A stretch of DNA of 64,000 nt, from positions 80,221 through 144,220 of the forward strand of contig CALFWM010000048.1 of assembly GCA_937928635.1 (NCBI GenBank). Direction: 5' to 3'. Positions 11,281 to 34,926 of this stretch are shown here, in pieces. The translations under genes were made by a program, and so were the position numbers. How positions within the stretch are numbered: position 1 is the stretch's first letter; each line of letters begins with the position of its first letter. Under the pieces are notes generated by a model that saw nothing but the letters and a program-made list of their open reading frames with translations, was not told the origin of the DNA and ran no database searches. The DNA comes from an uncultured Sulfitobacter sp. GTDB taxonomy: Bacteria > Pseudomonadota > Alphaproteobacteria > Rhodobacterales > Rhodobacteraceae.

Positions 11281-11300
11281 ACTGTATACAAAAATACAGT
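11281..11300. promoter_or_regulatory. inverted repeat ACTGTAT-N6-ATACAGT (operator candidate, site A)
   Basis: Read directly. It lies in the 118-bp divergent region between the GntR gene and the GlxB-like gene and shares the CTGTATAC core with sites B-D. Confidence 0.5.
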
Positions 11301-11330
11301 AGGTGCAATGAGGCTCTTGCGTTGGACTGA

Positions 11331-11346
11331 ATACTGTATACAGTAT
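11331..11346. promoter_or_regulatory. perfect 16-bp palindrome ATACTGTATACAGTAT (operator candidate, site B)
   Basis: Read directly, 26 bp upstream of the ATG at 11372. The GT...AC-centred palindrome fits the general shape of GntR-family operators. Confidence 0.55.
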
Positions 11347-15382: not shown

Positions 15383-16525
15383 CTATCGGCCAGAAGGGCT
15401 CTCTTTGGGCGACAGCTTTTTTCGTCCAGCGATCTTGAACCGGTCGGCTGTGCCGTATTCGCCGAGCGCGACGCCAGCGGTGAAGTCGCCAAAAACAGGG
15501 CCGTGTTTGAACAGGTGACCAGAGCAGCCGCCTGCGAGCAGGACGTTTTCATGCTCCGGGTGCCAATCCACGATGAAATGAGTGTCAGGCGTCAGGATGA
15601 CCTGATTGAACTTGCTGTCCACCACCCGTTGTCCTTCCAGCCCTGGCAGCCGGTGGCGGATATATTGGCGGGTCTTAGTCAGCGATGCCTTTTCGATAAG
15701 ACGTTCATCATTGTTGATATCAATCGGTGTGTTGGGGATCACCACGGCGGCTTTGACCCCTGACCCCTCGGACGAGGGAATTCCAAAGCTGCCTTGCCCA
15801 TGGTCAATCCAGCAGGGCATATTTTCCATATCGAACGCATCTGAACCATCCGGGGTAGAGGTATAGAGCACATTGATGCCCATGATCGCAGAGATAGGTT
15901 TAATGGTGCGCGGAAACAGTTCAGCCATCCAGGCACCGGGCGCCATGACGATAACGTCGGCCATGATTGGCCGCCCTTCCAGCATGGGACGTTCCCGTGC
16001 ATCGGTCGTGACGGTGCCGCGTTTAACCACACCGCCTGCGCGTTTGAACAGATCAAGGGCAGTGATCACGCAGCGATGGGCCATCAGTAACCCGGCTTCT
16101 GGCTCAAACAGCGCATAGCTGATCTCGTCCACTTTGAACTGGGGAAAGCGGTCGTGCACCTCATCCGGGGTGAATTTGTAATAGGGCACGCCGACCTTGT
16201 CGAAAGTCTCAGATGTCGCGTCCTCCCAATGGCAATGCCCTTGGGTGGCAAGGATCAGTGCGCCGCATTCATACATCAGATTCTGGCCGCTCTCGGCCTG
16301 TAGCTCCAGCCACATGTCACGGGATTGACGGACCCAGCGTGTGTAAAATTCATCCCGGCCCGAAATTGCCCGGATCACCCGATTGTAGTCAGAGGAGGCC
16401 GCCCGTGCATGGCCCGGTTCCCAACGGTCAATCAGGGTGACCTGTTCGCCGCGCCGCTGCATGTGCAGGGCTGTCATAACCCCGGCAATACCGCCGCCCA
16501 CAACCACACATGTATTTCGTGCCAT
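15383..16525 (-). CDS. DAO-family FAD-dependent oxidoreductase (sarcosine-oxidase-beta / N-alkyl-amino-acid oxidase-like)
   Basis: ORF track 15383..16657. I trimmed to the ATG at 16525 ('MARNTCVVVGGGIAGVMTA', FAD GxGxxG at the N-terminus). RBS AAGGA upstream. Confidence 0.85.
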   Translation of the reverse strand: MARNTCVVVGGGIAGVMTALHMQRRGEQVTLIDRWEPGHARAASSDYNRVIRAISGRDEFYTRWVRQSRDMWLELQAESGQNLMYECGALILATQGHCHWEDATSETFDKVGVPYYKFTPDEVHDRFPQFKVDEISYALFEPEAGLLMAHRCVITALDLFKRAGGVVKRGTVTTDARERPMLEGRPIMADVIVMAPGAWMAELFPRTIKPISAIMGINVLYTSTPDGSDAFDMENMPCWIDHGQGSFGIPSSEGSGVKAAVVIPNTPIDINNDERLIEKASLTKTRQYIRHRLPGLEGQRVVDSKFNQVILTPDTHFIVDWHPEHENVLLAGGCSGHLFKHGPVFGDFTAGVALGEYGTADRFKIAGRKKLSPKESPSGR

Positions 16526-16562
16526 GACGATAATTTTCCTTGCCGAGTCACTGCATTCATGG

Positions 16563-16578
16563 ATACTGTATACAGAAT
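16563..16578. promoter_or_regulatory. ATACTGTATACAGAAT (15/16 match to the palindrome; operator candidate, site C)
   Basis: Read directly. It is centred in the 96-bp divergent region between the FAD oxidoreductase (start 16525) and the GS-like gene (start 16622). Confidence 0.5.
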
Positions 16579-16621
16579 ACACGCAAAGACAATCAGATTC
16601 TCTGACAGGGAGAGGGACGAG

Positions 16622-17914
16622 ATGAGCCAAGATTTCAGCCTGCCGGAAGGCACCCATACCGTCATTCTGGGGTTAGGTGACTTAAACGGCATTATGCGTG
16701 GCAAACGGATACCGGCCTCGCATTGGGAAACGATTTGCAAAGAGGGCAATGCCCTCTCTGCCGCGATGATGGCCATCGACAGCAATTGCGACGTCTGGGA
16801 CACGCCTTATGTCAACTTCGACAACGGGTATCCGGACATGCATATGTTTCCCATGACCAAGCCTGTGGCTGTGCCATGGGAAGAAGGTGTCGCGGTCTGT
16901 TTTGCGCGCGGTGAAGGGATGGATCACAAACCTGTCCCGATTGATCCACGCAATGCGCTGGTGCGCCAGGTGGAACGGGCCCGGGAAATGGGCTTTGACG
17001 TCTCCACCGGGGCCGAATTGGAGTTTTACCTGCTCGACCCGGAAACCGGTCAGCCGCGTGATCAGGGCATTCAGGTCTATGGCCTTGGTCGTGCCGCGCG
17101 GATGGAGCATATCGTTGGGCCAATCCGCCGTCAGATCAATGAATGCGGCATCCCGATTGAGCAATCCAACCCAGAATATGCGCCCGGTCAGGTTGAGGTA
17201 AACATCCGCTACGATGAAGCGTTGCTAAGTGCGGACCGTGTTGTGCTGTTTAAATCACTGGTGCGCCAGTTGGGCATTGCGCATGGTTATCTTGCAACCT
17301 TCATGCCCAAACCGTTCTTTGAACAATCCGGTAATGGTTTCCACGTGCACTATTCGTTGTGGAAAGATGGCAAAAATGCCTTTGCTGATGGTGGTAAACT
17401 CAACGAATTGGGCAAGAACTTTACCGCCGGTCTGCAGAAACGCATGGGAGAGGCGGCGATCTGTGGGTCACCCACACCCAACGGGTTCCGCCGTCGCCAG
17501 GCTTATACCTTCTGCCCTATCAATACGTCCTGGGGTTATGACAACCGCACCGTTGGGCTGCGGATTATCGAAGGGTCGGACACCGCTGTGCGTGTCGAAA
17601 AACGGGATGCAGGAGCGGATGCAAATCCCTACCTGCTCTTGGCCACCGATCTGGCCGCAGGGCTAGATGGCATTGAACAGGGCATGCAGCCGACGGAGCC
17701 AACCCTGGGCAATGCTTATGAAGATTTTAATGGCGATCCTATCCCCACCACGGCACCGGATGCCATTGCGCAGGCACGCGGGTCTGACTGGTTGAAGGAC
17801 GTCATGGGTGAAACCCTTTGGGAACTTTACCTGCAAATGGCCGAGCGCGAAGTTGGCTTTGTTGAAGAGCAGGTCACGCCCGTCGAAACCGCCCGCTATT
17901 TGAGGACCCTGTAG
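16622..17914 (+). CDS. glutamine synthetase-family protein (GmaS/GlnT-like); candidate gamma-glutamyl-amine synthetase
   Basis: ORF track 16325..17914. I trimmed to the ATG at 16622 (RBS GGGAGAGGGA at 16608-16617). GS catalytic-domain pattern: 'ELEFYL', 'EYAPGQVEVNIRY', 'ATFMPKP...SGNGFHVHYSLW', 'RVEKRDAGADANPYL'. Confidence 0.85.
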   Translation: MSQDFSLPEGTHTVILGLGDLNGIMRGKRIPASHWETICKEGNALSAAMMAIDSNCDVWDTPYVNFDNGYPDMHMFPMTKPVAVPWEEGVAVCFARGEGMDHKPVPIDPRNALVRQVERAREMGFDVSTGAELEFYLLDPETGQPRDQGIQVYGLGRAARMEHIVGPIRRQINECGIPIEQSNPEYAPGQVEVNIRYDEALLSADRVVLFKSLVRQLGIAHGYLATFMPKPFFEQSGNGFHVHYSLWKDGKNAFADGGKLNELGKNFTAGLQKRMGEAAICGSPTPNGFRRRQAYTFCPINTSWGYDNRTVGLRIIEGSDTAVRVEKRDAGADANPYLLLATDLAAGLDGIEQGMQPTEPTLGNAYEDFNGDPIPTTAPDAIAQARGSDWLKDVMGETLWELYLQMAEREVGFVEEQVTPVETARYLRTL

Positions 17915-17915
17915 A

Positions 17916-18185
17916 ATGCAGATCGGCCTTGTCAAAGGAACGCTGACTGCGACCGCAAAGGCCGAACGGCTGACGGGACAAAAGCTGATGGTCGTTGACG
18001 TGATCGACGCTGCTGGCAAGGTCATCGTGCCCTCCTTGGTCGCGGTGGACACCTGCGGGGCCGGCGTTGGCGATGGCGTAATGCTGACCCAAGGGTCGGC
18101 TGCGCGTATGGCCGCTGGCTTGTCCGCCGCCCCCATTGACCTGGCAATTATCGCGGTTGTTGACCGCGTCTCTGTTGATACCTGA
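17916..18185 (+). CDS. BMC vertex pentamer, BMC-P (EutN/CcmL/PduN family, PF03319)
   Basis: 89 aa. '[13 protein letters not shown]...KLMVVDVID...[23 protein letters not shown]...[11 protein letters not shown]' aligns along its length with E. coli EutN as I remember it. The ATG lies 1 nt after the GS-like stop. Confidence 0.9.
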
Positions 18186-18217
18186 ACCACTTTAGAACAC
18201 CAAAAAGGAACGAAAAA

Positions 18218-18526
18218 ATGGCAACTCCTGCACCGGGCCAGATGGCCCTTGGAATGATTGAAACACGTGGCCTCATCGGCGCAATTGAAGCGGCGGACGC
18301 CATGGTAAAAGCGGCCAGCGTCACCATCGTGGGCCAGACCAAGGCAGGCGGTGGGTTGGTCACAACCCTTGTGCGCGGCGAAGTGGGTGCCGTCAAAGCG
18401 GCCACCGATGCAGGCGCAACAGCGGCCAACAAGGTCGGTGATGTCGTGAGTGTTCATGTGATCGCGCGCCCCCATGATGAGCTTGAGGCGATCATCGACA
18501 GCCTTGGCGCTGGTTCCGCAGCTTAA
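18218..18526 (+). CDS. BMC shell hexamer, BMC-H (PduA/EutM/CcmK family, PF00936)
   Basis: 102 aa. '[61 protein letters not shown]...VHVIARPH' is near-canonical. The pore loop reads KAGGG. Confidence 0.92.
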
Positions 18527-18542
18527 GCCCTAAGGACACTCC

Positions 18543-19727
18543 ATGCCCGCTGATTTTGAGGATTTCGCACGCGCTGCCTCACGCAGCCGTTCCGACAGCG
18601 TTCCTGCATCCGCTCCCCTGTCAAAGGTTGCGGTGCTGGGCGGCGGTCCGGATGCGCGTTTGCTAGCGGCCTTGTCCTCGGCGGCAGATTGCGAGGTCAC
18701 GCTGTTCTCGGCCTACGGGCGTGAGTTGGAGCTGATGCGGGCATCCTCTGGCATCGCGTTGCGGGGTGCCGGACCCATTGGCAGCTATCAGGTGGACCGC
18801 GGTGCGGCCTCAATTGCCCTGACCGCAGAACTCGACGCGGCGGTACAGGGGGCGGAGGTGATTTTTCTAACCGGGCCCATTCACAAACAACGCACATACG
18901 CGATGGTCCTGGCGGACCATCTGGTAGATGGCCAAATTTTGGTGCTGGCACCGGGGCGGTCATTGGGGGCGGTTGAATCCGCCTGGATGCTGCGATTGGG
19001 TGGTTGCACGGCGGATGTGACCTTGGTTGAGGTACAAGGACTGCCCTATTGGTATGTGACTGAAGGGGCGACTTTGTATTTGTCCAGCTCTGCCCCTATG
19101 GCTGCATCAACCTTGCCCCGTGGTCGCGGTGGCGTGCTGGATCAGCTAAAATCAATCCTGCCAAATATTGTTAGTACAGAATCTGTATTGGCCTCTGGCT
19201 TCAGTGATCTTTCGGCGGCTGTCGAAATCCCGGCACTTGTGCTGGGTGGGGCTGGTCTGGCACAGGGTGGAGTCAATGTTCCGATGGGTGGAACACCATT
19301 GGCGCAGAACCAGACCTTTGCTGCCTTGATCGGGTCTGATCAGTATCGTTTGATTGAAAGTCTCGCAGAAGAACGCCGTGCCGTAGCCCAAGCCTTTGGC
19401 GTGCGTGGTTTGCCGGATAACGATGCCTGGATTGCGACATATGCTGGTGCCGAGAAAGGCGAAGGTGCACGCCCCGTACCGGACCGTGACACTGCCCGTG
19501 CGATGCTGCGGGATGGGGTTATTGGATCGCTTGTGCCGCTTGCGTCAGCAGCGGAACTGGCCGACATCGACGTTCCCCAAACCCGTGCGCTGATGGCCAT
19601 GACAGGGGCGATTCTGGATGCTGATGTTGCGGCATCCGGTCGGCGGCTGGATACGATGGGCATCACGGAGCGCAATCTGGATGCTGCGCGCCGTACCTTT
19701 GATGCGCTCACGGCAGGAGGCCGCTGA
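18543..19727 (+). CDS. opine (octopine/nopaline) dehydrogenase-family protein with atypical motifs and an N-terminal tail
   Basis: 394 aa. 'ILPNIVSTESVLASGFSDLSAAVEIPALVLG', 'AEERRAVAQAFGVRGLP' and 'GSLVPLASAAELADIDVPQTRAL' parallel opine-dehydrogenase family blocks from memory. The Rossmann motif reads 'VLGGGPDA'. Confidence 0.7.
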   Translation: MPADFEDFARAASRSRSDSVPASAPLSKVAVLGGGPDARLLAALSSAADCEVTLFSAYGRELELMRASSGIALRGAGPIGSYQVDRGAASIALTAELDAAVQGAEVIFLTGPIHKQRTYAMVLADHLVDGQILVLAPGRSLGAVESAWMLRLGGCTADVTLVEVQGLPYWYVTEGATLYLSSSAPMAASTLPRGRGGVLDQLKSILPNIVSTESVLASGFSDLSAAVEIPALVLGGAGLAQGGVNVPMGGTPLAQNQTFAALIGSDQYRLIESLAEERRAVAQAFGVRGLPDNDAWIATYAGAEKGEGARPVPDRDTARAMLRDGVIGSLVPLASAAELADIDVPQTRALMAMTGAILDADVAASGRRLDTMGITERNLDAARRTFDALTAGGR

Positions 19728-21103
19728 TGGACAATGACCTTAAATCCATCGCCGCCGCGCGCCGCGCTGCTGAAAGTGCCTTTGACGCCTATCAAAAATT
19801 TCTGGGCACGGACCCTGCCCATGTAGACGCCATCGTTGACGCCATGGCCCGCGCGATTGAACCCGAGGCGGAGCGCCTTGGCCAGCTTGCCGTAGATGAA
19901 ACGGGGTATGGGAACGTGCCGGACAAACGGGTCAAAAACCTGTTCAACTCCCTGTCGGTGGCGGAGTATCTGCGCGACATCACAACCCTAGGCATGCTCT
20001 GGCGCGATGACGCGACCAAGATTGCCGCCTTTGGTGAACCGATGGGCGTTGTGGCAGCCTTGATCCCGGTCACCAATCCGACCTCTACGATTATCTTTAA
20101 AGTGTTGAGCGCGGTGAAGGCAGGCAATGCGATCATCTGCGCGCCCCACCCGCGCGGTGTACGTGCGGGTCTGGAAACAACCAGGATCATGGCGGAGGTG
20201 GCCGAACAGATGGGTGCCCCCAAGGGGCTGATCCAATGTATGGATCAGGTGACCATTCAGGGCACCGCAGAACTGATGCGACACCGACGGATGTCTGTGG
20301 TGATGGCAACCGGCGGGCCCGCGATGGTCAAGGCAGCCTATTCCAGCGGTAAACCCACGTTGGCCGTAGGGGCCGGGAATGTACCCTGCTACGTGCACAA
20401 GTCGAAAAAGAACGACATTGGTGAAGTGGCCGAAATGATCGTCACCTCCAAGAGTTTTGATTATGGGACGGCCTGTGTTTCAGAACAGGCGGTCATTGCA
20501 GACCCCGAGGTCGCGCGTGATTTGCGCCATGAGATGAAACTGAAAGGTGCCTATTTCTGCACGCCCGCGGAAGCTGACCGATTGGCAGCTGTAATTTTTA
20601 CCGGCAAGCAAGCGATGAACCCGGAGCGGGTCGGGCAATCTCCGCAAGCCCTGGCAGATGCCGCAGGATTTTCGATCCCGCCCCGCACGCGGTGTCTGGT
20701 GTCTGAGGAAACCGAGATTGGTTGGGAACGCCCCCTGTCAGCGGAAAAGTTAAACCCGGTTCTGGCCTTTTATGAGGCAAAGAATTCAGAGCACGGTCTG
20801 GAATTGGCGCAACGCATTGCGCGGTTTGAGGGCTGGGGGCATTCGTCTGTTCTGCATAGTGACGACCCTGAAATTGTCGCCAAATTTGCCACCATCCCCA
20901 CCGGGCGCGTGTTGGTGAACACACCCGCAATCATGGGCGGCATGGGGTATTCGACCGATCTAGAGCCGTCATTCATGTTGGGGACAGGCACATGGTCCGG
21001 GTCAATTACCTCTGACAATGTTACAGCACTCCATCTGATCAACATCAAGCGGGTGGCATATGAGAGCCGACCCTGGCGCGACATCTACAAGGAATACGGG
21101 TAG
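19727..21103 (+). CDS. CoA-acylating aldehyde dehydrogenase (EutE/PduP-like metabolosome core AldDH)
   Basis: 458 aa. 'LAVDETGYGNVPDK', 'ATGGPAMVKAAYSSGKP' and the catalytic-Cys context 'FDYGTACVSEQAVIAD'. TGATG overlap with the upstream gene. Confidence 0.85.
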   Translation: MDNDLKSIAAARRAAESAFDAYQKFLGTDPAHVDAIVDAMARAIEPEAERLGQLAVDETGYGNVPDKRVKNLFNSLSVAEYLRDITTLGMLWRDDATKIAAFGEPMGVVAALIPVTNPTSTIIFKVLSAVKAGNAIICAPHPRGVRAGLETTRIMAEVAEQMGAPKGLIQCMDQVTIQGTAELMRHRRMSVVMATGGPAMVKAAYSSGKPTLAVGAGNVPCYVHKSKKNDIGEVAEMIVTSKSFDYGTACVSEQAVIADPEVARDLRHEMKLKGAYFCTPAEADRLAAVIFTGKQAMNPERVGQSPQALADAAGFSIPPRTRCLVSEETEIGWERPLSAEKLNPVLAFYEAKNSEHGLELAQRIARFEGWGHSSVLHSDDPEIVAKFATIPTGRVLVNTPAIMGGMGYSTDLEPSFMLGTGTWSGSITSDNVTALHLINIKRVAYESRPWRDIYKEYG

Positions 21104-21160
21104 GTGACGTGCGCGTTCAGGCGCGACACCCCACCCACCCTCCCATTTTGAGGAACTCAC

Positions 21161-21784
21161 ATGTCTGAAATTACCATTCGCGCGTTGATGCAGATCGACA
21201 ATCTGCAACCCAAATTCGCGGCCTACAATGGGGCCACTGTGCAGGGTTCCGTACCGCTTTCCGGGGATACGGTCCTGATCGGGGAATTTGCGCCGGGCAA
21301 TGGTGTGTTTTCGCTGATTGATCGCGCGCTGAAGGCGTCAAGCGTTGAGGCGACCACGCAGATGGTCGAACGGGAGTTTGGCTTTTTCATCCTCCGTTCC
21401 CCCTCAAACGCTGAGGTCTCCGCCGCGCGCGATGCGATGCTGGCTGAACTGGGTGCGTCGATGTCGGACCGTTTGAAACCAGCGATCACAAACACCCAGA
21501 TCATCACCAGCGTAGAGCCCTATCAGGCACAATTGCTCAACAAATGGCGAAAGGGGTCGCTGTTGGTGCCGGGGCAGACGCTTGGCATTATTGAATGCGC
21601 CCCTGCGGCCTATATTTCCATCGCCGCAAATGAGGCGGAAAAGGCCGCAGATATTGACATGGTTGAGGTCCGCGCGGTGGGTCGTTTTGGACGACTGTTT
21701 ATCTCCGGCACAGAAAATTCAGTGCAGGATGCCATGGACGCCGCCGTAACGGCGATTGAGGCTGTTGAGGGCCGCGCTGAATGA
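21161..21784 (+). CDS. tandem-domain BMC shell protein, BMC-T (EutL/PduB-like topology)
   Basis: 207 aa. There are two BMC-like halves: 'TVLIGEFAPGNGVFSLIDRALKASSVEA...FGFFILRSPSNAEVSAARDAM' and 'TLGIIECAPAAYISIAANEAEKAADIDMVEV...GRLFISGTENSVQDAMDAAVTAIE'. Each is preceded by a roughly 35-aa segment, as in EutL. Confidence 0.8.
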   Translation: MSEITIRALMQIDNLQPKFAAYNGATVQGSVPLSGDTVLIGEFAPGNGVFSLIDRALKASSVEATTQMVEREFGFFILRSPSNAEVSAARDAMLAELGASMSDRLKPAITNTQIITSVEPYQAQLLNKWRKGSLLVPGQTLGIIECAPAAYISIAANEAEKAADIDMVEVRAVGRFGRLFISGTENSVQDAMDAAVTAIEAVEGRAE

Positions 21785-22962
21785 GTACAGGCCGCGTCAT
21801 AGGCACTGACACGGTGGAGGATGCACGCCGTCGCAGCCGGTTGATCGTCGAGGTCATGCCCGGCGATATTGTCACTGCCCTCGCGCGGGAATCAGCCGAA
21901 CGTTTTGGCCTGAAACTGGTCGATGGCCCGGTTGAGATGCCTGCTCCGGTGCGCACAGACGGGGCCACATCCATGCGCCGTACGCTTTATCGGCGTGCAC
22001 CCAAATGGCAAGCCCCCGCACGCCGTCCGCGCAAAGCCCGCCAGTTGGGCAAGCTGGCCCTGATTGGCGCAGGTGGTGTGGGTGGCAACATCGCACATTT
22101 GGCCGCGATGGCGGATATGGCGCAAGAAATTGCGTTGATCGACATCGCGCCGGGTTTGGCGGCAGCGACTGCGTTGGATCTAAACCACGCAAGCGGGATA
22201 ACCGGTGCGGCCGGGCGATGCTTGGGTGGTGAAACGCTCGATCTGGTTGCGGGGGCGGAGGTTGTTGTTGTCACTGCCGGACGCGCACGTGGGCCTGGCA
22301 TGACGCGGGCCGATTTGATTGACGTGAATGCACGTGTGATCCGCGCGGCGGGTGAGGCGATCCGCTCTGAAGCACCAGATGCGGTTGTGATTGTCGTGAC
22401 CAACCCACTGGATGAAATGACCGTTAAGATGTTGCGTGCCACCGGGTTCCCGCGGGAGCGCGTCTTGGGCATGGCAGGTACGCTGGATTCCTCTCGCTTC
22501 CGGCATGCCTTGGCACGTGCGGCAGGGGTTGATCCGGCAGATGTTGATGCGATCACCCTGGGAAGCCATGGCGAAGAAATGGCCCCCATTCCGTCCCGTG
22601 CCACGATCAAGGGGCGACCGCTGGAGGTGTTCCTGAGCACCGATCAGATCGAGACCTGTGTGCAGGACGCGATCACCGGTGGGGGTCAGGTTGTCGCCTT
22701 GAAAAAGATGGGGTCCGCGACCATCGCGCCGGCCCATGCCTCTATCGAGTTGATCGACCACATGCGCGATGCGCGGTCGGGCCCTGTTCCGGTTTCTGTG
22801 ATGCTTGAGGGTGAATATGGGATTGAGGGTGTCGTACTGGGCGTACCGGCACATTTGGGTGCGCGCGGATTTGTTAAGGTTGAGGAATTGCGCCTGACTG
22901 ATTCCGAAACTGCAGGGCTGCATGCCGCAGCAGAAGCGATCCGCGCGCGGTTGGGTTTATGA
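21781..22962 (+). CDS. LDH-like malate dehydrogenase-family enzyme with an about 90-aa N-terminal extension
   Basis: 393 aa. From residue ~91: 'KLALIGAGGVGGNIA', 'VTAGRARGPGMTRADL', 'VVTNPLDEM', 'GTLDSSRFR', 'LGSHGEEM'. Residues 1-88 lie outside the MDH/LDH fold. ATGA overlap with the BMC-T gene. Confidence 0.85.
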   Translation: MSTGRVIGTDTVEDARRRSRLIVEVMPGDIVTALARESAERFGLKLVDGPVEMPAPVRTDGATSMRRTLYRRAPKWQAPARRPRKARQLGKLALIGAGGVGGNIAHLAAMADMAQEIALIDIAPGLAAATALDLNHASGITGAAGRCLGGETLDLVAGAEVVVVTAGRARGPGMTRADLIDVNARVIRAAGEAIRSEAPDAVVIVVTNPLDEMTVKMLRATGFPRERVLGMAGTLDSSRFRHALARAAGVDPADVDAITLGSHGEEMAPIPSRATIKGRPLEVFLSTDQIETCVQDAITGGGQVVALKKMGSATIAPAHASIELIDHMRDARSGPVPVSVMLEGEYGIEGVVLGVPAHLGARGFVKVEELRLTDSETAGLHAAAEAIRARLGL

Positions 22963-23366
22963 GCACGCAAATCCACAAGGCTGGCGGACGGTTTGAAGAA
23001 ATTGGCAGCTATGCGCGCGCCAAACGGATTGGCCCCTTCGTTTGGACAGCTGGCACAACCGCGATCGAACCATCCGGCAAAATCCATGCCCCGGATGATG
23101 GATATGCGCAGACGCGCTACATTCTGAGCCGCATCAAAGAGTTCCTGGGCGAGGTTGGTGCCGAGATGCGGCATGTCGCCCGGGTGCGGGTCTATCTGAC
23201 AGATATGAAACACGCTGCCGGGTTCATCAAGGCGCATGGTGAGGTGTTCAAAGACATTGATCCGGTGCTGACGGCGGTGACGGCGGGGCTGACGCAAACG
23301 GGGCTGGTGGTTGAGATTGACGTTGATGCGGTTATTCATGATACAGACGGCACGATAGCGATCTAG
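22959..23366 (+). CDS. RidA/YjgF/L-PSP family protein (reactive enamine/imine deaminase family)
   Basis: 135 aa. 'GPFVWTAGTTA', 'VRVRVYLTDM' and 'PVLTAVTAGL...LVVEIDVDAV' fit the Rid fold. ATGA overlap with the upstream gene. Confidence 0.8.
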   Translation: MSTQIHKAGGRFEEIGSYARAKRIGPFVWTAGTTAIEPSGKIHAPDDGYAQTRYILSRIKEFLGEVGAEMRHVARVRVYLTDMKHAAGFIKAHGEVFKDIDPVLTAVTAGLTQTGLVVEIDVDAVIHDTDGTIAI

Positions 23367-23446
23367 TGTATTCCGGTCGTGCAATGGCGTGCACCACCTC
23401 TCCTTACGGGTTTCATTTTGAACCACCCCGCTCTAGCCTGTCACAC

Positions 23447-23755
23447 ATGTTGTTCAAAGTTGTTAAAGCCCCCTCCGGCGGGTCGCCGCAGTGGGTCCGT
23501 GATGCCTGGGTCGGTGTTCAATTCCAGGCCCTTCAGGGTGTGCCAGTTACCGTACCTGCCCGGGCATCGGGCGAAGCAGAGGTGACGCAGCGGCGCGGCT
23601 ATCCCGCAAATGCACGTGATTTGCTGGGTTTGCTGGCCCTCGCAAACGAAGACGCTGCACGTTGGTATTTGGACAATGCTCCGCAAATGCTTGACCCGAA
23701 ACAGGTTTTTGTTTTGGACGAACCTTGCTGTGTGGCCATCGCTGAGCTGAACTGA
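23447..23755 (+). CDS. hypothetical small protein (last gene of the BMC operon)
   Basis: ORF track 23366..23755. I prefer the ATG at 23447 ('MLFKVVKAPSGGSPQWVRDAWVG...'). No family recognised and the RBS is weak. Confidence 0.4.
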   Translation: MLFKVVKAPSGGSPQWVRDAWVGVQFQALQGVPVTVPARASGEAEVTQRRGYPANARDLLGLLALANEDAARWYLDNAPQMLDPKQVFVLDEPCCVAIAELN

Positions 23756-23826: not shown

Positions 23827-23842
23827 GTACTGTATACAGGAT
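23827..23842. promoter_or_regulatory. GTACTGTATACAGGAT (14/16 match to the palindrome; operator candidate, site D)
   Basis: Read directly, 49 bp upstream of the ATG at 23891. It overlaps a possible promoter: TTGATC (23806-23811), 16 nt spacer, TACTGT (23828-23833). Confidence 0.45.
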
Positions 23843-23890: not shown

Positions 23891-25171
23891 ATGACATTTG
23901 GACGTAGTATAATAACCGGGCTTGCCGCCTCGCTGTTGGCAAGCACGGCCATGGCTGAGGTGAAAGTTGGCTTTATCGGTTCGTTGAGTTCAGACACCGG
24001 CCTGTCCACCCTACGTGGTGCCGAGATCGCAATTGAAGAGCTGAACGCCGCTGGTGGCATGAACGGCGAGAAAATTGTGCTGGTCAGCGCCGATACCGCA
24101 GAGGATGTGACCGAAGGTGTGAAAGCCTATGAATATCTGGCGGAAACGGAGGAGGTGGACTTTATCATCTCCGGCTCCATTGATGACGTATCTTTGGGTT
24201 GGCTGCCGCGTATGCAGGAATACCAGATCCCGACGCTGGACACCTGGACCAGTTACATCGGCATCATTGACATGGTGGTCGAAGACCCAGAGCTGATGGC
24301 CCCTTATTTCATGAACATCGCCTCTGATGAGGCGCTTGCGACGCTCTATATCAACTTTGGTGCGGATGTGCTCAAGGCTAAAATGGGCTGGGACAGCGTT
24401 GTTATTCTGGCCGAAGACACCGCATTTGGTGAAGCGATCACCGGTCTTGTGACCGAGGCGCTGGGCCCTGTGGCTGGCATCGAGGTCAAGGACATCATCA
24501 CCTATGACGTCGGCACTGTCGATTTCGCACCGCTGTTTTCCAAGGCGCAGGCCTCTGGTGCGGACTTTATCTATCAGGTCTCTTCTGTGAACTCACAGGT
24601 GATCTCCTCACAGTACGTGAAACTGCAGGTGCCCATGGCGATGACAGGTGTGAATGTCTCTGCGCTGGGTCTGGAATATTGGGAAGACACCGGTGGTGCC
24701 GGTGGTGGTATTTCCACACTGTCCCCGATCCCCTCCGTGGGTTTTGAACTGGATCCCGAAAGCCAGAAATTTGTCGATACCTATCAGTCCAAATATGACA
24801 GCCGTCCCAAGATGCCGCACTTTAACGGCTTCAACGCCTATTGGGGTCTGAAACAGGCCATGGCGGCCGCTGAGGCTGCCGGTGGGTTTGAAGATGCCGC
24901 CAAATGGGCCAAAGAGATGGAAAAGCAGGACATCACGCTGAAAAAAGACGGCAAGTTGTGGTTGCGCTATGCCTTCTGGGGCGCAGATGAGGTTGAGGAA
25001 GTGACGGGCCGGACCTACCCGCACAACGCACGTTTTGACCTGACGGCACCCTATGACGATGCGCAGCCTTCCATGGTTGTGATTCAGTGGAAAGAAGACG
25101 GCGGCGTTGGGGTGGTTTATCCACCAGAATACGCGACAACCGACTTCACTGTTCCAAGCTGGGTTAAGTAA
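23891..25171 (+). CDS. ABC transporter periplasmic substrate-binding protein (Leu/Ile/Val/amide-binding type)
   Basis: ORF track 23825..25171. I trimmed to the ATG at 23891 (RBS GGGAGA, signal peptide 'GLAASLLASTAMAEV'). 'KVGFIGSLSSDTGLSTLRGAEIAIEELNAAGG' is typical of this SBP family. Confidence 0.85.
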   Translation: MTFGRSIITGLAASLLASTAMAEVKVGFIGSLSSDTGLSTLRGAEIAIEELNAAGGMNGEKIVLVSADTAEDVTEGVKAYEYLAETEEVDFIISGSIDDVSLGWLPRMQEYQIPTLDTWTSYIGIIDMVVEDPELMAPYFMNIASDEALATLYINFGADVLKAKMGWDSVVILAEDTAFGEAITGLVTEALGPVAGIEVKDIITYDVGTVDFAPLFSKAQASGADFIYQVSSVNSQVISSQYVKLQVPMAMTGVNVSALGLEYWEDTGGAGGGISTLSPIPSVGFELDPESQKFVDTYQSKYDSRPKMPHFNGFNAYWGLKQAMAAAEAAGGFEDAAKWAKEMEKQDITLKKDGKLWLRYAFWGADEVEEVTGRTYPHNARFDLTAPYDDAQPSMVVIQWKEDGGVGVVYPPEYATTDFTVPSWVK

Positions 25172-25178
25172 ACCTGCT

Positions 25179-25206
25179 GTTCAGGGCGGCTGCGGCTGCC
25201 CTGAAC
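25179..25206 (+). promoter_or_regulatory. intra-operon hairpin GTTCAGGGC-N10-GCCCTGAAC between the SBP and permease genes
   Basis: Read directly; a 9-bp perfect stem. Such hairpins after SBP genes commonly stabilise or attenuate transcripts. There is no U-tract. Confidence 0.4.
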
Positions 25207-25231
25207 CACATCCTGAACGGGTCACCTCCCC

Positions 25232-31337: not shown

Positions 31338-31338
31338 G

Positions 31339-34814: not shown

Positions 34815-34926
34815 CGTGCGTCCTCCGTCCGGTGGCCAGGTATCGGCACCGATGGGTCAGGTTAAGAAAAAGAGGAAAGATAAGAGGTTTCCGGCCCGCC
34901 AGTGTTTGGCGGACCGAAAGACAGGC

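What the first reader, a model, noticed from the sequence alone, without database searches (positions are those of the whole stretch)
16526..23755. Compact bacterial-microcompartment operon with no known signature enzyme, transcriptionally fused to a GS-like amine-activating gene
One apparent operon encodes, in order: a GS-like synthetase, BMC-P, BMC-H, an opine-DH-like protein, an acylating AldDH, an EutL-like BMC-T, an MDH-like protein with an extension, RidA and a small unknown protein. It runs 16622-23755, with gaps of 1-57 nt or overlapping stop/start codons (TGATG at 19725-19729, ATGA at 21781 and 22959). The three shell-protein classes plus an acylating aldehyde dehydrogenase are the accepted hallmark of a catabolic metabolosome. 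However, I find none of the known aldehyde-generating signature enzymes within the flanking 10 kb. Missing are ethanolamine ammonia-lyase, B12 diol dehydratase, glycyl-radical enzymes, the aminoalcohol kinase/phospholyase of the RMM type, aldolases and RuBisCO/carbonic anhydrase. Instead the shell genes sit among gamma-glutamylation / glutamate-synthase-like genes. That combination is not part of any BMC model I know, and the locus lies in what looks like a marine alphaproteobacterium. I cannot check published BMC locus catalogues from here. The locus type may already be listed as a type of unknown function, but the biochemical logic proposed here would still be untested.
Basis: partly seen in the sequence, partly recalled or inferred. 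Interest (0 to 1): 0.9.

Follow-up and report, generated by a model that had tools for sequence, protein, structure and literature searches.

The report
Uncharacterised MIC2 microcompartment, amine-linked regulon
This is a real, intact bacterial-microcompartment gene cluster of the type catalogued in 2021 as MIC2 (function still unknown), and its conserved neighbours and a shared regulator binding site suggest that it handles the toxic aldehyde made when marine bacteria break down a small amine.

Summary
Window 16622-23366 (+) encodes a GS-like ligase, BMC-P, BMC-H, an opine-DH-like protein, an acylating AldDH, a BMC-T, an MDH with an N-terminal extension, and a Rid-family protein. No known signature enzyme and no phosphotransacylase lies within ±10 kb.

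Three details are wrong:
- The BMC-T is CcmP/CsoS1D-like, not EutL-like.
- The 'RidA' lacks the archetypal arginine.
- The 129-aa ORF is lineage-restricted.

The locus is not a new type. It meets every testable feature of 'MIC2' in Sutter et al. 2021 (22 loci, function unknown). I found no later characterisation.

What I add:
- In 80 related loci the core is essentially invariant.
- A divergent sarcosine-oxidase-like flavoenzyme (74/75) and the Rid protein (64/65) are nearly invariant too.
- A Liv-type ABC transporter is present in about 90% of loci.
- A GntR regulator plus a three-subunit N-methylglutamate-synthase-like enzyme is present in about 69%.
- One palindrome (CTGTATACAG) marks all these promoter regions.
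- The same gene set, with a GTATAC-core operator, recurs in Actinobacteria.

Best reading: a gamma-glutamylation / N-alkylglutamate pathway for a small amine ends in an aldehyde-trapping microcompartment, whose NAD+ is recycled by an encapsulated malate dehydrogenase. The substrate and the step assignments are inferred.

The parts
10588..11253 (-). GntR/FCD-family transcriptional regulator. The true start is the ATG at 11253, giving 221 aa. It is the candidate repressor of the regulon.
   Evidence: Pfam GntR+FCD. The start was read from the sequence. Present in 42 of 64 assessable related loci and in Nocardioides loci.
11282..11343 (.). Two operator-like palindromes in the gntR|mgsA-like intergenic region: CTGTATACAA at 11282-11291 and CTGTATACAG at 11334-11343.
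   Evidence: 4 matches in the window against 0.47 expected, and 0 of 100 shuffles reach 4. Conserved at this position in 41 of 42 loci.
11372..12316 (+). MgsA-like class-II (Ntn) glutamine-amidotransferase subunit. It begins MCGI.
   Evidence: Pfam GATase_6/7. 28% identical to MgsA of the bona fide NMG cluster of A. caldus. Present in 46 of 66 loci.
12313..13005 (+). MgsB-like GXGXG subunit.
   Evidence: Pfam GXGXG. 34% identical to A. caldus MgsB/GlxC. Present in 47 of 67 loci.
13058..14482 (+). MgsC-like FMN-binding glutamate-synthase-domain subunit.
   Evidence: Pfam Glu_synthase, 333 bits. 55% identical to A. caldus MgsC, and 81-98% identical among MIC2-linked copies.
14479..15174 (+). Class-I glutamine amidotransferase-like protein. 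It is a candidate gamma-glutamyl-amide hydrolase and an accessory part.
   Evidence: Pfam GATase plus weak Peptidase_C26. Present in 40 of 73 loci. Absent from N. terrisoli.
15383..16525 (-). Monomeric-sarcosine-oxidase-like FAD enzyme of 380 aa with no terminal extension. It is a candidate N-alkyl-amino-acid oxidase or dehydrogenase.
   Evidence: Pfam DAO. MSOX 1el5 matches at E 1.3e-32. The R49, R52, K265 and K348 equivalents are kept, and Cys315 is Asn. Present in 74 of 75 loci and in Nocardioides.
16566..16575 (.). Operator-like perfect palindrome CTGTATACAG in the 96-bp divergent promoter region between the flavoenzyme gene and the GS-like gene.
   Evidence: Present in 76 of 78 loci. CCGTATACGG occupies the same place in Nocardioides.
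16622..17914 (+). GS-like gamma-glutamyl-amine synthetase candidate, the first gene of the BMC operon.
   Evidence: Gln-synt_C, 291 bits. It scores below all GS, GmaS and PuuA equivalog cut-offs. 62% identical to the GS of an ipu-like cluster on M. loti pML2037, 36% to IpuC and 31% to GmaS. Present in 79 of 79 loci.
17916..18185 (+). BMC-P (pentamer / vertex protein).
   Evidence: PF03319, 84.9 bits, full length. Present in 79 of 80 loci.
18218..18526 (+). BMC-H (hexamer shell protein).
   Evidence: PF00936, 89.3 bits. Present in 80 of 80 loci.
18543..19727 (+). Opine-dehydrogenase-fold NAD(P) oxidoreductase with an N-terminal encapsulation-peptide-like helix (residues 3-13) followed by a variable linker. 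It is the candidate luminal signature enzyme.
   Evidence: CENDH 1bg6 matches at E 9e-21 with a profile. Foldseek top hits are 1bg6 and 3c7d. AF2 predicts a helix at 3-13 followed by disorder. The N-terminal motif is conserved. The CENDH His202 position is Glu/Asp/Asn in this subclade.
19727..21103 (+). CoA-acylating aldehyde dehydrogenase without an encapsulation peptide.
   Evidence: TIGR02518, 490 bits, and AdhE N-terminal domain, 462 bits. Catalytic Cys250 is invariant in 75 of 75 homologues.
21161..21784 (+). BMC-T of the double-stacking CcmP/CsoS1D type (BMC-Tdp).
   Evidence: NF053796 CcmP, 204 bits, full length; EutL 21.6 bits. Precomputed Pfam CsoS1D_N+BMC. Present in 69 of 69 loci.
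21781..22962 (+). Malate dehydrogenase (LDH-like MDH family) with a conserved N-terminal extension of about 90 aa. The first ~45 residues resemble the N-terminal segment of EutQ. It is the candidate luminal NAD+ recycler.
   Evidence: PRK06223, 306 bits against a cut-off of 283. PDB MDH 4plh matches at 3.5e-68. R170 (=R102), R176, N208, D236, R239 and H263 are invariant in 66 of 66 homologues. hhalign against EutQ 3-48 gives P 9e-4.
22959..23366 (+). Rid/YjgF-family protein lacking the archetypal RidA arginine.
   Evidence: PF01042, 74 bits. TIGR00004 scores 46 against a cut-off of 106. The Arg105 position is L/T/M in 67 of 67 homologues. Present in 64 of 65 loci. Also present in Nocardioides, next to the regulator.
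23366..23755 (+). 129-aa ORF with no family match. It is lineage-restricted and of doubtful relevance.
   Evidence: No Pfam or NCBIfam hit. Homologues at 56-60% identity occur only in Sulfitobacter-like loci, 7 of 65.
23830..23839 (.). Operator-like palindrome CTGTATACAG about 50 nt upstream of the transporter operon.
   Evidence: Present between Rid and the binding-protein gene in 50 of 55 loci.
23891..28507 (+). Liv-type ABC transporter. The Peripla_BP_6 binding protein runs 23891-25171; its true start gives the signal peptide MTFGRSIITGLAAS. There are two permeases (25232-26083, 26084-26992) and two ATPases (27051-27809, 27806-28507).
   Evidence: Pfam. The start was read from the sequence. 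Present in about 56 of 62 loci. Also present in N. terrisoli.

Best explanation
The locus is a member of the catalogued but uncharacterised MIC2 class of bacterial microcompartments. I propose that it is the aldehyde-handling end of a gamma-glutamylation / N-alkylglutamate pathway for a small primary amine. That pathway would be a paralogue of the N-methylglutamate pathway, serving a short alkylamine or amino alcohol.

Shown by this work:
- The gene content, order and conservation.
- The family and fold of each protein.
- The conservation of key residues.
- A shared operator at four promoter regions.

Inferred chain of steps:
1. The amine is imported by the Liv-type ABC system. In Actinobacteria an APC permease is present as well.
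2. The GS-like ligase makes gamma-glutamyl-alkylamide, using ATP.
3. The MgsABC-like three-subunit enzyme hydrolyses the amide on its Ntn-amidotransferase subunit and forms N-alkyl-L-glutamate. The class-I GATase-like protein is an optional hydrolase acting as a safety valve.
4. The alkyl C-N bond is oxidised to give glutamate plus an aldehyde. Two secondary-amine oxidoreductases are candidates. My preferred assignment is the opine-DH-fold enzyme, because it carries an encapsulation-peptide-like helix and so could work inside the shell. This would be saccharopine-dehydrogenase-like chemistry. The sarcosine-oxidase-like flavoenzyme and the Rid protein would then act in the cytosol, as a parallel or overflow route or on the imine.
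5. Inside the shell, the acylating AldDH converts the aldehyde to acyl-CoA.
6. Luminal NAD+ is regenerated by the encapsulated, canonical malate dehydrogenase (oxaloacetate to malate). Reducing equivalents therefore leave as malate rather than as an alcohol. No phosphotransacylase is present, so acyl-CoA must leave the shell and CoA must enter it, possibly through the gated BMC-Tdp pore.
7. A GntR/FCD regulator binding the GTATAC-core palindromes co-ordinates the four transcription units.
For: MIC2 identity:
- All features listed in the catalogue were tested and met.

Conservation:
- Among 80 loci from Paracoccaceae, Hyphomicrobiales, Granulosicoccaceae, Halioglobus, Chromatiales and Rhodospirillales, the counts are: DAO 74/75, GS 79/79, P 79/80, H 80/80, AldDH 72/72, T 69/69, MDH 67/68, Rid 64/65, ABC about 56/62, MgsABC-like 46/67.
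- The intact N. terrisoli locus (Actinobacteria) has the same set: GntR, MgsABC-like, DAO, GS, P, H, OpDH, AldDH, T, MDH, Rid and ABC.

Regulon:
- CTGTATACAG occurs 4 times in the window, only at the gntR|mgsA, DAO|GS and transporter promoter regions. The expectation is 0.47.
- Across loci it is found at these places in 41/42, 76/78 and 50/55 cases, with 23 other hits in 1.46 Mb. Most of the 'other' hits in the 20 loci inspected also lie next to the same genes.
- It is present even where gntR and mgsABC are not nearby (L022, L023, L066).
- Nocardioides has CCGTATACGG or CCGTATACGA at the equivalent places.

Pathway logic:
- The MgsABC-like genes have the architecture and order of bona fide N-methylglutamate synthase. 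They are only 28, 34 and 55% identical to it.
- The GS-like protein is 62% identical to the GS of an ipu-like alkylamine cluster (P450, ferredoxin, APC permease, gamma-glutamyl hydrolase). It is 36% identical to IpuC and 31% to GmaS.
- GMAS-type enzymes are known to accept ethylamine and isopropylamine (PMC10832564).
- The flavoenzyme is nearest to MSOX, MTOX and fructosyl-peptide oxidases. All of these oxidise N-substituted amino acids. It keeps the carboxylate-binding R52 and K348 equivalents.

Encapsulation:
- The N-terminal helix plus linker of the OpDH-like protein is present throughout its clade, down to 27% identity. It is absent from generic opine DHs.
- The MDH extension is conserved and, according to the catalogue, specific to BMC loci.

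MDH role:
- All canonical MDH catalytic and specificity residues are invariant.
- MIC1 shares AldDh and the extended MDH but has different accessory enzymes.
- How NAD+ is regenerated in MIC2 was listed as unknown in 2024 (PMC11626177).
Against: - There is no experimental evidence of any kind, and the substrate is not identified.
- MgsABC-like genes are missing from the neighbourhood in about 31% of loci. The presence of the operator suggests they are encoded elsewhere, but I could not check this.
- Two enzymes compete for the aldehyde-forming step. The enzyme whose family normally does exactly this reaction (MSOX-like) has no encapsulation signal, which fits the microcompartment logic poorly.
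- Canonical opine DHs cleave at the carboxylate-bearing carbon and give a 2-oxo acid, not an aldehyde.
- The window's OpDH-like protein has Glu where CENDH has the catalytic His202. Its Pfam score is below the gathering threshold.
- Its beta2 end lacks the acidic residue typical of NAD+ specificity. This is my reading. It may therefore use NADP(H), which would break the simple luminal NAD cycle.
- The Rid protein lacks the residue needed for known imine-deaminase activity.
- Liv-type binding proteins usually bind amino acids or amides rather than plain alkylamines (one search gives only distant matches).
Confidence: 0.55

Rival explanations
1. A Puu/Ipu-like route. The amine is a diamine, polyamine or amino alcohol whose amino group is only protected by gamma-glutamylation. 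The other end is then oxidised, by the OpDH-fold enzyme acting as an alcohol dehydrogenase or by the flavoenzyme acting as an amine oxidase like PuuB. The product is a gamma-glutamyl-aminoaldehyde. The microcompartment AldDH converts this to a thioester, and the class-I GATase-like protein or an amidase finally removes glutamate. The MgsABC-like enzyme would be peripheral.
For: - GS-like + DAO-family + AldDH + GATase-like mirrors PuuA, PuuB, PuuC and PuuD (established knowledge of the puu pathway).
- The GS-like protein is nearest to the GS of an ipu-like cluster and to IpuC.
- The OpDH fold is also that of ketopantoate and D-mandelate carbonyl reductases, and the canonical opine-DH His is lost.
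- Amidases lie nearby in the window (28510-29964) and in Nocardioides sp. TF02-7.
Against: - It does not explain the MgsABC-like genes, which share the operator and co-occur even in Actinobacteria.
- The flavoenzyme resembles MSOX and MTOX and keeps their alpha-carboxylate-binding residues.
- The GATase-like gene is present in only about 55% of loci.
- A CoA thioester of a gamma-glutamyl-amino acid has no known downstream route.
Confidence: 0.15
2. Catabolism of an imported secondary amine. An opine-type N-(carboxyalkyl) amino acid, such as those made by marine invertebrates, enters through the amino-acid-type ABC transporter. It is cleaved by the encapsulated opine-DH-like enzyme and/or the sarcosine-oxidase-like enzyme. 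The GS-like and MgsABC-like proteins act as a dedicated GS/GOGAT-like pair that assimilates the released nitrogen.
For: - Both universally present oxidoreductases belong to families that act on N-substituted amino acids.
- Liv-type binding proteins and APC permeases typically carry amino acids.
- Many carriers are host-associated: sponge, squid, ascidian and kelp bacteria appear in the record titles.
Against: - Canonical opine cleavage yields a 2-oxo acid, which is not an AldDH substrate.
- The GS-like protein fails all true-GS equivalog thresholds. Its closest relative outside MIC2 loci sits in an alkylamine (ipu-like) cluster.
- The MgsABC-like enzyme has no GltD-like or ferredoxin reductant partner.
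- Translational coupling of GS to the shell genes argues for a role in the pathway rather than in housekeeping.
Confidence: 0.1
3. A methylamine variant of the N-methylglutamate pathway. A monomeric oxidase releases free formaldehyde, and the microcompartment traps it as formyl-CoA.
For: - The set is formally complete: GmaS-like, MgsABC-like, and an MSOX-like enzyme whose characterised relatives release formaldehyde.
- Methylated amines are abundant in the sea (general knowledge).
Against: - Identity to a bona fide NMG cluster is low: 31, 28, 34 and 55%.
- TIGR03105 scores 229 bits against a cut-off of 470.
- There are no mgdABCD, folD or purU genes (compared).
- The AldDH is closest to acetaldehyde-type enzymes.
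- The GS-like protein is closer to the IpuC type than to GmaS.
Confidence: 0.07
4. A chance juxtaposition, or a decaying and non-functional remnant.
For: One relative, Nocardioides sp. TF02-7, shows frameshifted GS and MDH genes. One metagenomic contig has fragmented genes.
Against: - All reading frames in the window are intact, with coupled junctions.
- Catalytic residues are invariant.
- The order is identical in 80 of 80 loci across classes and in N. terrisoli.
- The operators are conserved.
Confidence: 0.01

Closest known systems
MIC2 bacterial-microcompartment locus type (Sutter et al. 2021, Nat Commun 12:3809, Supplementary Data 2)
   Same: [quoted passage not shown] The taxonomic range is also the same (Alpha- and Gammaproteobacteria, a few Actinobacteria). 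A sponge-symbiont Rhodobacter genome typed MIC2 in the catalogue appears to correspond to locus L066. That match rests on names only.
   Different: Nothing differs in kind, so the window's locus is simply another member. The catalogue text does not mention the sarcosine-oxidase-like flavoenzyme, the Rid protein, the MgsABC-like synthase, the GntR regulator and operator, or the transporter. It assigns no function.
Canonical catabolic metabolosomes (Eut, Pdu, RMM1/AAUM)
   Same: [quoted passage not shown] A CoA-acylating AldDH with a catalytic Cys. At least one cargo protein with an N-terminal amphipathic helix plus linker. According to the catalogue, RMM1 is the nearest characterised type by AldDh phylogeny.
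   Different: There is no ammonia-lyase, diol dehydratase, glycyl-radical enzyme, kinase/phospholyase or aldolase. There is no phosphotransacylase and no Fe- or Zn-alcohol dehydrogenase. A malate dehydrogenase occupies the place of the cofactor-recycling enzyme. ATP-dependent gamma-glutamylation lies upstream.
N-methylglutamate pathway of methylamine oxidation (GmaS, MgsABC, MgdABCD)
   Same: A GS-family ligase, a three-subunit synthase (Ntn-GATase, GXGXG, FMN glutamate-synthase domain) in the same gene order, and a DAO-family enzyme able to oxidise N-alkyl amino acids.
   Different: Identity to a bona fide cluster is only 28-55%. A monomeric MSOX-like enzyme replaces the heterotetrameric MgdABCD. 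There are no folate-linked genes. The system is coupled to a microcompartment and a CoA-acylating AldDH, which implies an aldehyde of C2 or larger rather than folate-captured formaldehyde.
Gamma-glutamylation amine pathways (Ipu isopropylamine, Puu putrescine)
   Same: A GS-like first step. The GS-like protein is 36% identical to IpuC and 62% to the GS of an ipu-like cluster on M. loti pML2037. An optional amidotransferase-fold hydrolase is present, and an APC permease is present in actinobacterial loci.
   Different: There is no P450 hydroxylase. The AldDH is acylating rather than hydrolytic. An MgsABC-like synthase and a protein shell are present.
Opine dehydrogenases (CENDH 1bg6, octopine DH 3c7a)
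   Same: Two-domain Rossmann plus helical fold. These are the best sequence and structure matches in the PDB.
   Different: An extra N-terminal encapsulation-like helix. The CENDH His202 position is Glu/Asp/Asn in the window's subclade. The Pfam score is below the gathering threshold. The family is small and separate: 61 representatives at E<=1e-30 among 1.84 billion clusters.

Membership tests
MIC2 BMC locus type (Sutter et al. 2021) | [quoted passage not shown] | tested here: met
   PF00936, PF03319, NF053796 CcmP at 204 bits, and CsoS1D_N+BMC. No further shell genes in the window.
MIC2 BMC locus type (Sutter et al. 2021) | PF00171 aldehyde dehydrogenase without an encapsulation peptide | tested here: met
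   Aldedh / TIGR02518, aligned 2-456 to 1-454. The N-terminus aligns with the start of the ALDH domain. Cys250 is invariant.
MIC2 BMC locus type (Sutter et al. 2021) | PF02866 lactate/malate dehydrogenase with an N-terminal extension of about 70 aa that shows EutQ-like similarity | tested here: met
   Ldh_1_N starts at residue 91. The extension is conserved in 65 homologues. hhalign aligns residues 5-49 to EutQ 3-48 with P 9e-4, matching the non-cupin N-terminal segment of EutQ.
MIC2 BMC locus type (Sutter et al. 2021) | 6-phosphogluconate-dehydrogenase-like-superfamily protein with a short N-terminal helical EP | tested here: met
   Opine-DH fold. Predicted helix at 3-13 followed by a disordered linker. 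The motif is conserved.
MIC2 BMC locus type (Sutter et al. 2021) | PF00120 glutamine-synthetase-family gene in the locus | tested here: met
   Gln-synt_C at 291 bits, 1 nt upstream of BMC-P.
MIC2 BMC locus type (Sutter et al. 2021) | [quoted passage not shown] | not testable with these tools
   Only 64 kb of the genome is available. No other shell gene occurs within it.
MIC2 BMC locus type (Sutter et al. 2021) | Assignment by the catalogue's own type-specific HMMs (for example HMM00120_1_mic2, HMM02866_2_mic12) | not tested
   These HMMs are not available here. The names were seen in Supplementary Data 6.
Complete-core catabolic metabolosome | Known aldehyde-generating signature enzyme, phosphotransacylase (PduL/Pta) and alcohol dehydrogenase | tested here: not met
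   None of these families appears among the genes tiling 5.8-34.8 kb.
N-methylglutamate pathway | GmaS-type ligase (TIGR03105 equivalog) | tested here: not met
   228.6 bits against a cut-off of 469.6. 31% identical to A. caldus GmaS.
N-methylglutamate pathway | Three-subunit synthase (Ntn-GATase, GXGXG, FMN glutamate-synthase domain) in that order | tested here: met
   Pfam. Same order as in the bona fide cluster, at 28, 34 and 55% identity. N-alkylglutamate-forming activity was not tested.
N-methylglutamate pathway | Heterotetrameric N-methylglutamate dehydrogenase (MgdABCD) and folate-linked genes | tested here: not met
   Absent. A monomeric MSOX-like enzyme is present instead.
Opine dehydrogenase (PF02317) | Family HMM above threshold, and the catalytic His (CENDH His202) with its Arg/Asp partners | tested here: not met
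   Pfam 21.6 bits against 30. The His202 position is E/D/N. The Asp297 equivalent (D324) is invariant, and the Arg292 position varies. The fold itself is met.
Archetypal RidA imine deaminase | TIGR00004 membership and Arg105 | tested here: not met
   46 bits against 106.25. Leu/Thr/Met at that position in 67 of 67 homologues.
EutL-type BMC-T | Match to EutL models | tested here: not met
   EutL models score 21.6 and 16.3 bits against cut-offs of 198 and 300. CcmP scores 204 bits.
LDH-like malate dehydrogenase | Arg102 specificity residue plus Arg109, Asn140, Asp168, Arg171 and His195 | tested here: met
   All are present and invariant in 66 homologues. PRK06223 scores 306 against 283.

The most novel reading that the evidence does not exclude
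MIC2 would be the first microcompartment whose encapsulated signature reaction is NAD(P)-dependent oxidative C-N cleavage of an N-alkylglutamate. The enzyme would be an opine-dehydrogenase-fold protein. The substrate would be supplied by an ATP-driven gamma-glutamylation / N-methylglutamate-synthase-like module. Luminal NAD+ would be recycled by a malate/oxaloacetate shuttle instead of an alcohol dehydrogenase. That would be a new metabolosome design for aerobic amine catabolism, present in common marine Roseobacter-group and kelp- or sponge-associated bacteria.
Probability: 0.25. Interest if true: 0.85.

Novelty: new member of a known kind. Interest (0 to 1): 0.6.

Why it matters
MIC2 is one of the microcompartment types whose function has been an acknowledged blank since 2021. 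How it regenerates NAD+ was explicitly listed as unknown in 2024.

This work ties the shell operon to an N-methylglutamate-like amine module through synteny across phyla and a shared operator. That turns 'unknown function' into a short list of testable reactions:
- Which amine the GS-like enzyme glutamylates.
- Whether N-alkylglutamates yield aldehydes with the opine-DH-like or the sarcosine-oxidase-like enzyme.
- Whether the extended MDH is inside the shell.

Cultured strains are available for these tests: Ruegeria atlantica, Falsiruegeria mediterranea, Sulfitobacter noctilucicola and S. aestuariivivens, Aliishimia ponticola, and Nocardioides terrisoli.

If the model is right, it would add a new signature-enzyme class and a new cofactor-recycling solution to microcompartment biology. 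It would also add a new route for dissolved organic nitrogen turnover in the sea. The three-protein shell with defined targeting sequences may be useful for engineering as well.

Tried and rejected
1. AlphaFold model of the extended MDH from 26 close homologues. Mean pLDDT was 46.6, which is unusable, so I ran no fold search on it.
2. Pfam on the isolated MDH extension, the 129-aa ORF and the OpDH N-terminus at E<=10. Nothing was found.
3. Plain BLASTP of the MDH extension against E. coli EutQ. Nothing meaningful came back. Only a profile comparison gave a weak alignment in the right register.
4. Promoter and terminator consensus scans across 16.3-24.1 kb. Hits were at or below shuffle expectation and therefore uninformative.
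5. Literature searches for any functional study of MIC2, or for microcompartments linked to gamma-glutamyl, N-methylglutamate, opine, or Rhodobacteraceae/Roseobacter terms. None was found. Apparent hits were reference-list artefacts.
6. MIC2 loci on plasmids. None is in PLSDB; there are only distant opine DHs.
7. PDB relatives of the binding protein, used to guess the ligand. Only distant Leu/Ile/Val-type matches appeared (E about 1e-9).
8. The idea that the flavoenzyme has an N-terminal extension. I rejected it. The long ORF (to 16657) overlaps the GS start, and the GxGxxG motif follows the ATG at 16525.
9. The idea that loci lacking mgsABC carry an alternative conserved module upstream. I rejected it. 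The upstream genes there are unrelated: a transposase, a deaminase and an ALDH.
10. A GS-BMC-P fusion in Nocardioides sp. TF02-7. This is an artefact of a frameshifted reading frame.

Full report

Yes. The ORF table gives a tight + strand series:
- GS-like, 16622-17914
- BMC-P, 17916-18185
- BMC-H, 18218-18526
- a 394-aa protein, 18543-19727
- AldDH, 19727-21103
- BMC-T, 21161-21784
- MDH-like, 21781-22962
- a Rid-family protein, 22959-23366
- a 129-aa ORF, 23366-23755

The gaps are 1, 32, 16 and 57 nt.

Pfam and NCBIfam confirm the assignments:
- PF03319 at 84.9 bits.
- PF00936 at 89.3 and 43.5 bits.
- A CoA-acylating AldDH (TIGR02518 at 490 bits; AdhE N-terminal domain at 462 bits).
- Gln-synt_C at 291 bits.
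- Ldh_1_N and Ldh_1_C starting at residue 91.
- Ribonuc_L-PSP.
- A sub-threshold Octopine_DH match (21.6 bits against 30).

The genes from 5.8 to 34.8 kb tile the sequence. None of them is an ethanolamine ammonia-lyase, diol dehydratase, glycyl-radical enzyme, RMM kinase/phospholyase, aldolase, RuBisCO/CA, phosphotransacylase or Fe/Zn alcohol dehydrogenase. No other shell gene lies in the window.

**2. Corrections of detail**

- The BMC-T is of the CcmP/CsoS1D double-stacking kind, not EutL-like. NF053796 scores 204 bits over the full length and EutL models score 21.6 bits or less. The precomputed Pfam is CsoS1D_N+BMC.
- The 'RidA' is a Rid-family protein but not an archetypal RidA. TIGR00004 scores 46 against a cut-off of 106. 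The Arg105 position is Leu, Thr or Met in all 67 homologues.
- The 129-aa ORF has no family match. It is found only in Sulfitobacter-like loci, 7 of 65.
- The divergent flavoenzyme gene is 15383-16525 (-), 380 aa. This leaves a 96-bp intergenic region.
- The binding-protein gene really starts at 23891, which gives a signal peptide.
- The GntR gene starts at 11253.

**3. It is a catalogued type**

Supplementary Data 2 of Sutter et al. 2021 (PMC8217296) describes 'MIC2 - 22 loci' in Acidithiobacillia, Alpha- and Gammaproteobacteria and two Actinobacteria. The described content is:
- an AldDh without an EP;
- a PF02866 LDH/MDH with an N-terminal extension of about 70 aa and EutQ/cupin-like similarity;
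- a 6PGDH-like-superfamily protein with a possible EP of about 10 aa;
- a PF00120 glutamine synthetase;

Every one of these features was tested here and met (see the membership table). The catalogue gives no function.

A 2024 paper from the same field lists MIC2/3 among types whose NAD+ regeneration 'has yet to be determined' (PMC11626177). Seven further full-text searches found no functional study.

**4. Conservation**

The opine-DH-like protein has hundreds of close relatives, mostly from marine Roseobacter-group bacteria. Sulfitobacter is nearest, at 82-86% identity.

A scan of one genome per species found 147 relatives, of which I fetched 80 loci. They come from Paracoccaceae, Rhizobiaceae/Hyphomicrobiales, Granulosicoccaceae, Halioglobus, Chromatiales and Rhodospirillales.

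tblastn mapping of all window proteins gives an essentially invariant block:

| Gene | Present / assessable |
|---|---|
| Flavoenzyme (divergent) | 74/75 |
| GS-like | 79/79 |
| BMC-P | 79/80 |
| BMC-H | 80/80 |
| AldDH | 72/72 |
| BMC-T | 69/69 |
| MDH | 67/68 |
| Rid | 64/65 |

The opine-DH-like gene was the query and is present in all 80 loci.

Other genes are frequent but not universal:
- The ABC transporter follows in about 56 of 62 loci.
- The MgsABC-like trio lies upstream in 46 of 67.
- The class-I GATase-like gene is present in 40 of 73.
- The GntR gene is present in 42 of 64.
- Loci lacking the upstream module have unrelated genes there.

I also examined actinobacterial loci, which carry a distant subclade of the opine-DH-like protein (about 32% identity).
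- The intact Nocardioides terrisoli locus reads: APC permease | Rid | GntR/FCD | MgsA-, B-, C-like | flavoenzyme | GS | BMC-P | BMC-H | OpDH-like | AldDH | BMC-Tdp | MDH (391 aa), followed further downstream by a PBP6 ABC transporter.
- Nocardioides sp. TF02-7 has the same set, with frameshifted GS and MDH genes.

The functional unit is therefore larger than the catalogue's description, and it is old or horizontally mobile as a whole.

**5. A shared operator**

The perfect palindrome CTGTATACAG has the shape of a GntR/FadR-type operator. With at most one mismatch it occurs four times in the 64-kb window:
- 11282 and 11334, between gntR and mgsA-like;
- 16566, between the flavoenzyme gene and the GS gene;
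- 23830, about 50 nt upstream of the transporter operon.

The expectation is 0.47, and none of 100 shuffles reached four.

Across the 80 loci the palindrome sits at these same three places in 41/42, 76/78 and 50/55 cases. Only 23 other hits occur in 1.46 Mb. Most of the other hits in the 20 loci I inspected also lie next to the same genes.

It is present even in loci with no gntR or mgsABC nearby (L022, L023, L066). This predicts that the regulator, and probably the synthase, are encoded elsewhere in those genomes.

In Nocardioides the equivalent positions carry CCGTATACGG or CCGTATACGA. These are the flavoenzyme|GS region, upstream of mgsA-like, and upstream of the APC permease. A TGTATACG lies upstream of the binding-protein gene.

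This phylogenetic footprint links four transcription units into one regulon. It also suggests that the transporter has its own promoter, so the shell operon proper is GS to Rid.

**6. What the individual proteins look like**

*GS-like.*
- It scores below every equivalog cut-off for GS I, GS III/GmaS and PuuA.
- Its nearest homologue outside MIC2 loci that I could find (62% identity) lies on M. loti plasmid pML2037. The cluster there has cytochrome P450, a 2Fe-2S protein, an APC permease, a gamma-glutamyl-GABA-hydrolase-family protein and a Zn-ADH. This is the architecture of the isopropylamine (ipu) pathway.
- Annotated IpuC is 36% identical over the full length. A. caldus GmaS is 31% identical.

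*MgsABC-like.*
- The gene order and domains match bona fide N-methylglutamate synthase (purU-mgdABCD-gmaS-mgsABC-folD on the A. caldus megaplasmid).
- Identity to it is 28, 34 and 55%.
- The amidotransferase subunit starts MCGI, as active Ntn amidotransferases do.

*Flavoenzyme.*
- The best PDB matches are monomeric sarcosine oxidase (E 1.3e-32), N-methyltryptophan oxidase and fructosyl-peptide oxidases. All of these oxidise the N-substituent of an amino acid.
- The equivalents of MSOX R49, R52, K265 and K348 are kept.
- Cys315, which binds FAD covalently in MSOX, is Asn. H269 and Y317 are Val.
- There is no N- or C-terminal extension.

*Opine-DH-like protein.*
- The best PDB sequence match is CENDH 1bg6 (E 9e-21 with a profile).
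- An AlphaFold model (pLDDT 76, pTM 0.80) matches CENDH and octopine DH first, then ketopantoate reductases and metallophore opine DHs.
- Residues 3-13 form a conserved amphipathic helix (M-x-x-x-F-E-[DE]-F-x-R-A-A). A variable linker follows it, ahead of the Rossmann fold.
- In a search of 1.84 billion cluster representatives the family is small: 61 representatives at E<=1e-30.
- The N-terminal helix plus linker is present in clade members down to 27% identity. It is absent from generic opine DHs of about 360 aa.
- CENDH's catalytic His202 aligns with Glu, Asp or Asn in the window's subclade. It is retained as His in the more distant subclade, to which the actinobacterial sequences belong.

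*MDH.*
- The best match is MDH 4plh (3.5e-68).
- The specificity arginine (R102 equivalent, R170) and R176, N208, D236, R239 and H263 are invariant in 66 homologues.
- The N-terminal extension of about 90 aa is strongly conserved.
- Residues 5-49 align with residues 3-48 of E. coli EutQ (24% identity, P 9e-4). This is EutQ's N-terminal segment, not its cupin barrel.

*AldDH.*
- Cys250 is invariant, and there is no EP.

**7. Mechanism: what I commit to, and how firmly**

Shown:
- An intact MIC2 locus.
- A conserved regulon that joins it to a GS-like ligase, an N-methylglutamate-synthase-like enzyme, two secondary-amine-type oxidoreductases and transporters.

Inferred (overall confidence about 0.55):
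1. A small primary amine is imported.
2. It is gamma-glutamylated by the GS-like enzyme.
3. It is converted to N-alkylglutamate by the MgsABC-like enzyme.
4. It is oxidatively cleaved to glutamate plus an aldehyde.
5. The aldehyde is converted to acyl-CoA by the encapsulated AldDH.

For the cleavage step I prefer the opine-DH-like enzyme as the luminal signature enzyme, at about 0.45 within the model. My reasons:
- It is the type-specific cargo with a targeting helix.
- MIC1 shares the AldDh and the extended MDH but has other accessory enzymes.
- Glutamate-forming saccharopine dehydrogenase shows that the chemistry is feasible (textbook knowledge).

The sarcosine-oxidase-like enzyme is the main alternative, at about 0.3. 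Its family does exactly this reaction; saccharopine oxidase is a precedent, from memory. However, it has no targeting signal. It may act in the cytosol, perhaps together with the Rid protein. The missing arginine in that Rid protein could suit imines that lack an alpha-carboxylate. That last point is speculation.

The extended MDH is, in my reading, the luminal NAD+ recycler (oxaloacetate to malate). It would replace the alcohol dehydrogenase of classical metabolosomes, which suits aerobic bacteria. With no phosphotransacylase, acyl-CoA and CoA must cross the shell.

Candidate substrates are C2-C4 alkylamines or amino alcohols, because the AldDH is nearest to acetaldehyde-type enzymes and the GS is nearest to the Ipu type. 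This is the weakest part of the model.

**8. Rivals**

- A Puu/Ipu-like route with a gamma-glutamyl-aminoaldehyde as the microcompartment substrate (0.15).
- Catabolism of imported opine-type secondary amines, with GS and MgsABC acting only in nitrogen assimilation (0.10).
- A methylamine/formaldehyde variant (0.07).
- A non-functional remnant (0.01).

The evidence for and against each is given in the rival-explanations section.

**9. Verdict**

The finding is real and well described. It is another member of a known, catalogued type, not a new one. Its value lies in the fact that the type is still functionally blank.

This analysis adds three things:
- an extended conserved gene set;
- a cross-phylum operator footprint;
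- a concrete, testable pathway hypothesis, with cultured strains available.

Interest is 0.6. Novelty is 'new member of a known kind'.

Noticed in passing
window 28510-29964 (-); L085 5192-6550: An amidase (PF01425; NF004816 at 498 bits, just under its 503 cut-off) lies convergent to the end of the ABC transporter. In Nocardioides sp. TF02-7 an amidase sits between the mgsC-like and flavoenzyme genes. It could be an alternative gamma-glutamyl-amide hydrolase, or it could be coincidental.
   Followed up: partly
L011 6457-6838 (also L015, L018, L025): Ruegeria loci carry an extra operator-like site (CTGTATACAT) between the GATase-like and flavoenzyme genes. Next to it is a 121-aa ORF with a CxxC-containing C-terminal part. 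This may be an additional regulon member in that genus.
   Followed up: no
L084 (M. loti pML2037, 243521-268798): A plasmid-borne ipu-like cluster: Zn-ADH, alpha/beta hydrolase, P450, 2Fe-2S protein, APC permease, a GS-family protein 62% identical to the window's, a TPR protein and a gamma-glutamyl-GABA hydrolase family protein. It has no shell genes. The same ligase lineage therefore also serves a pathway without a microcompartment.
   Followed up: partly
L085 7991-9655 and 13256-15157: In Nocardioides sp. TF02-7 the GS and MDH reading frames run into Arg/Pro-rich out-of-frame sequence and fuse with neighbouring genes. Either the assembly has errors or the locus is decaying. The sister species N. 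terrisoli has intact genes.
   Followed up: partly
alignment A3: The encapsulation-helix-bearing opine-DH-like clade splits into two subclades. Subclade A includes the window; it has an acidic residue at the CENDH His202 position and an invariant HKQRTYAM motif. Subclade B, to which the actinobacterial sequences belong, retains the His and has a longer insertion around residues 305-325. This may reflect a change in mechanism or substrate.
   Followed up: partly
window 30036-37449: A xylose-utilisation cluster on the minus strand: xylose isomerase 30036-31337 (TIGR02630, 653 bits), an FGGY kinase 31339-32772, and an ABC ATPase and permease 32769-34814. A ROK-family regulator lies at 36139-37449 (+).
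   Followed up: no
window 44679-47051 (+) and 56735-59521 (-): Two large RTX-type (HemolysinCabind repeat) proteins. One also has PPC and serralysin-C-like domains. A sulfotransferase-domain protein lies at 47459-48931.
   Followed up: no
window 7107-8384 (+): A fusion of a polyketide-cyclase/SRPBCC domain (residues 5-134) with an alpha/beta hydrolase (residues 176-413). A TetR regulator follows at 8381-9049 and a sulfatase at 9043-10482 (-). In some Sulfitobacter-like loci (L008, L010) these genes travel with the MIC2 region.
   Followed up: no
window 23366-23755: The 129-aa ORF between Rid and the transporter operator is conserved at only 56-60% identity in Sulfitobacter-like loci, where neighbouring proteins are 75-95% identical. 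It has no detectable family. It is either a fast-evolving small protein or a non-coding spacer.
   Followed up: partly
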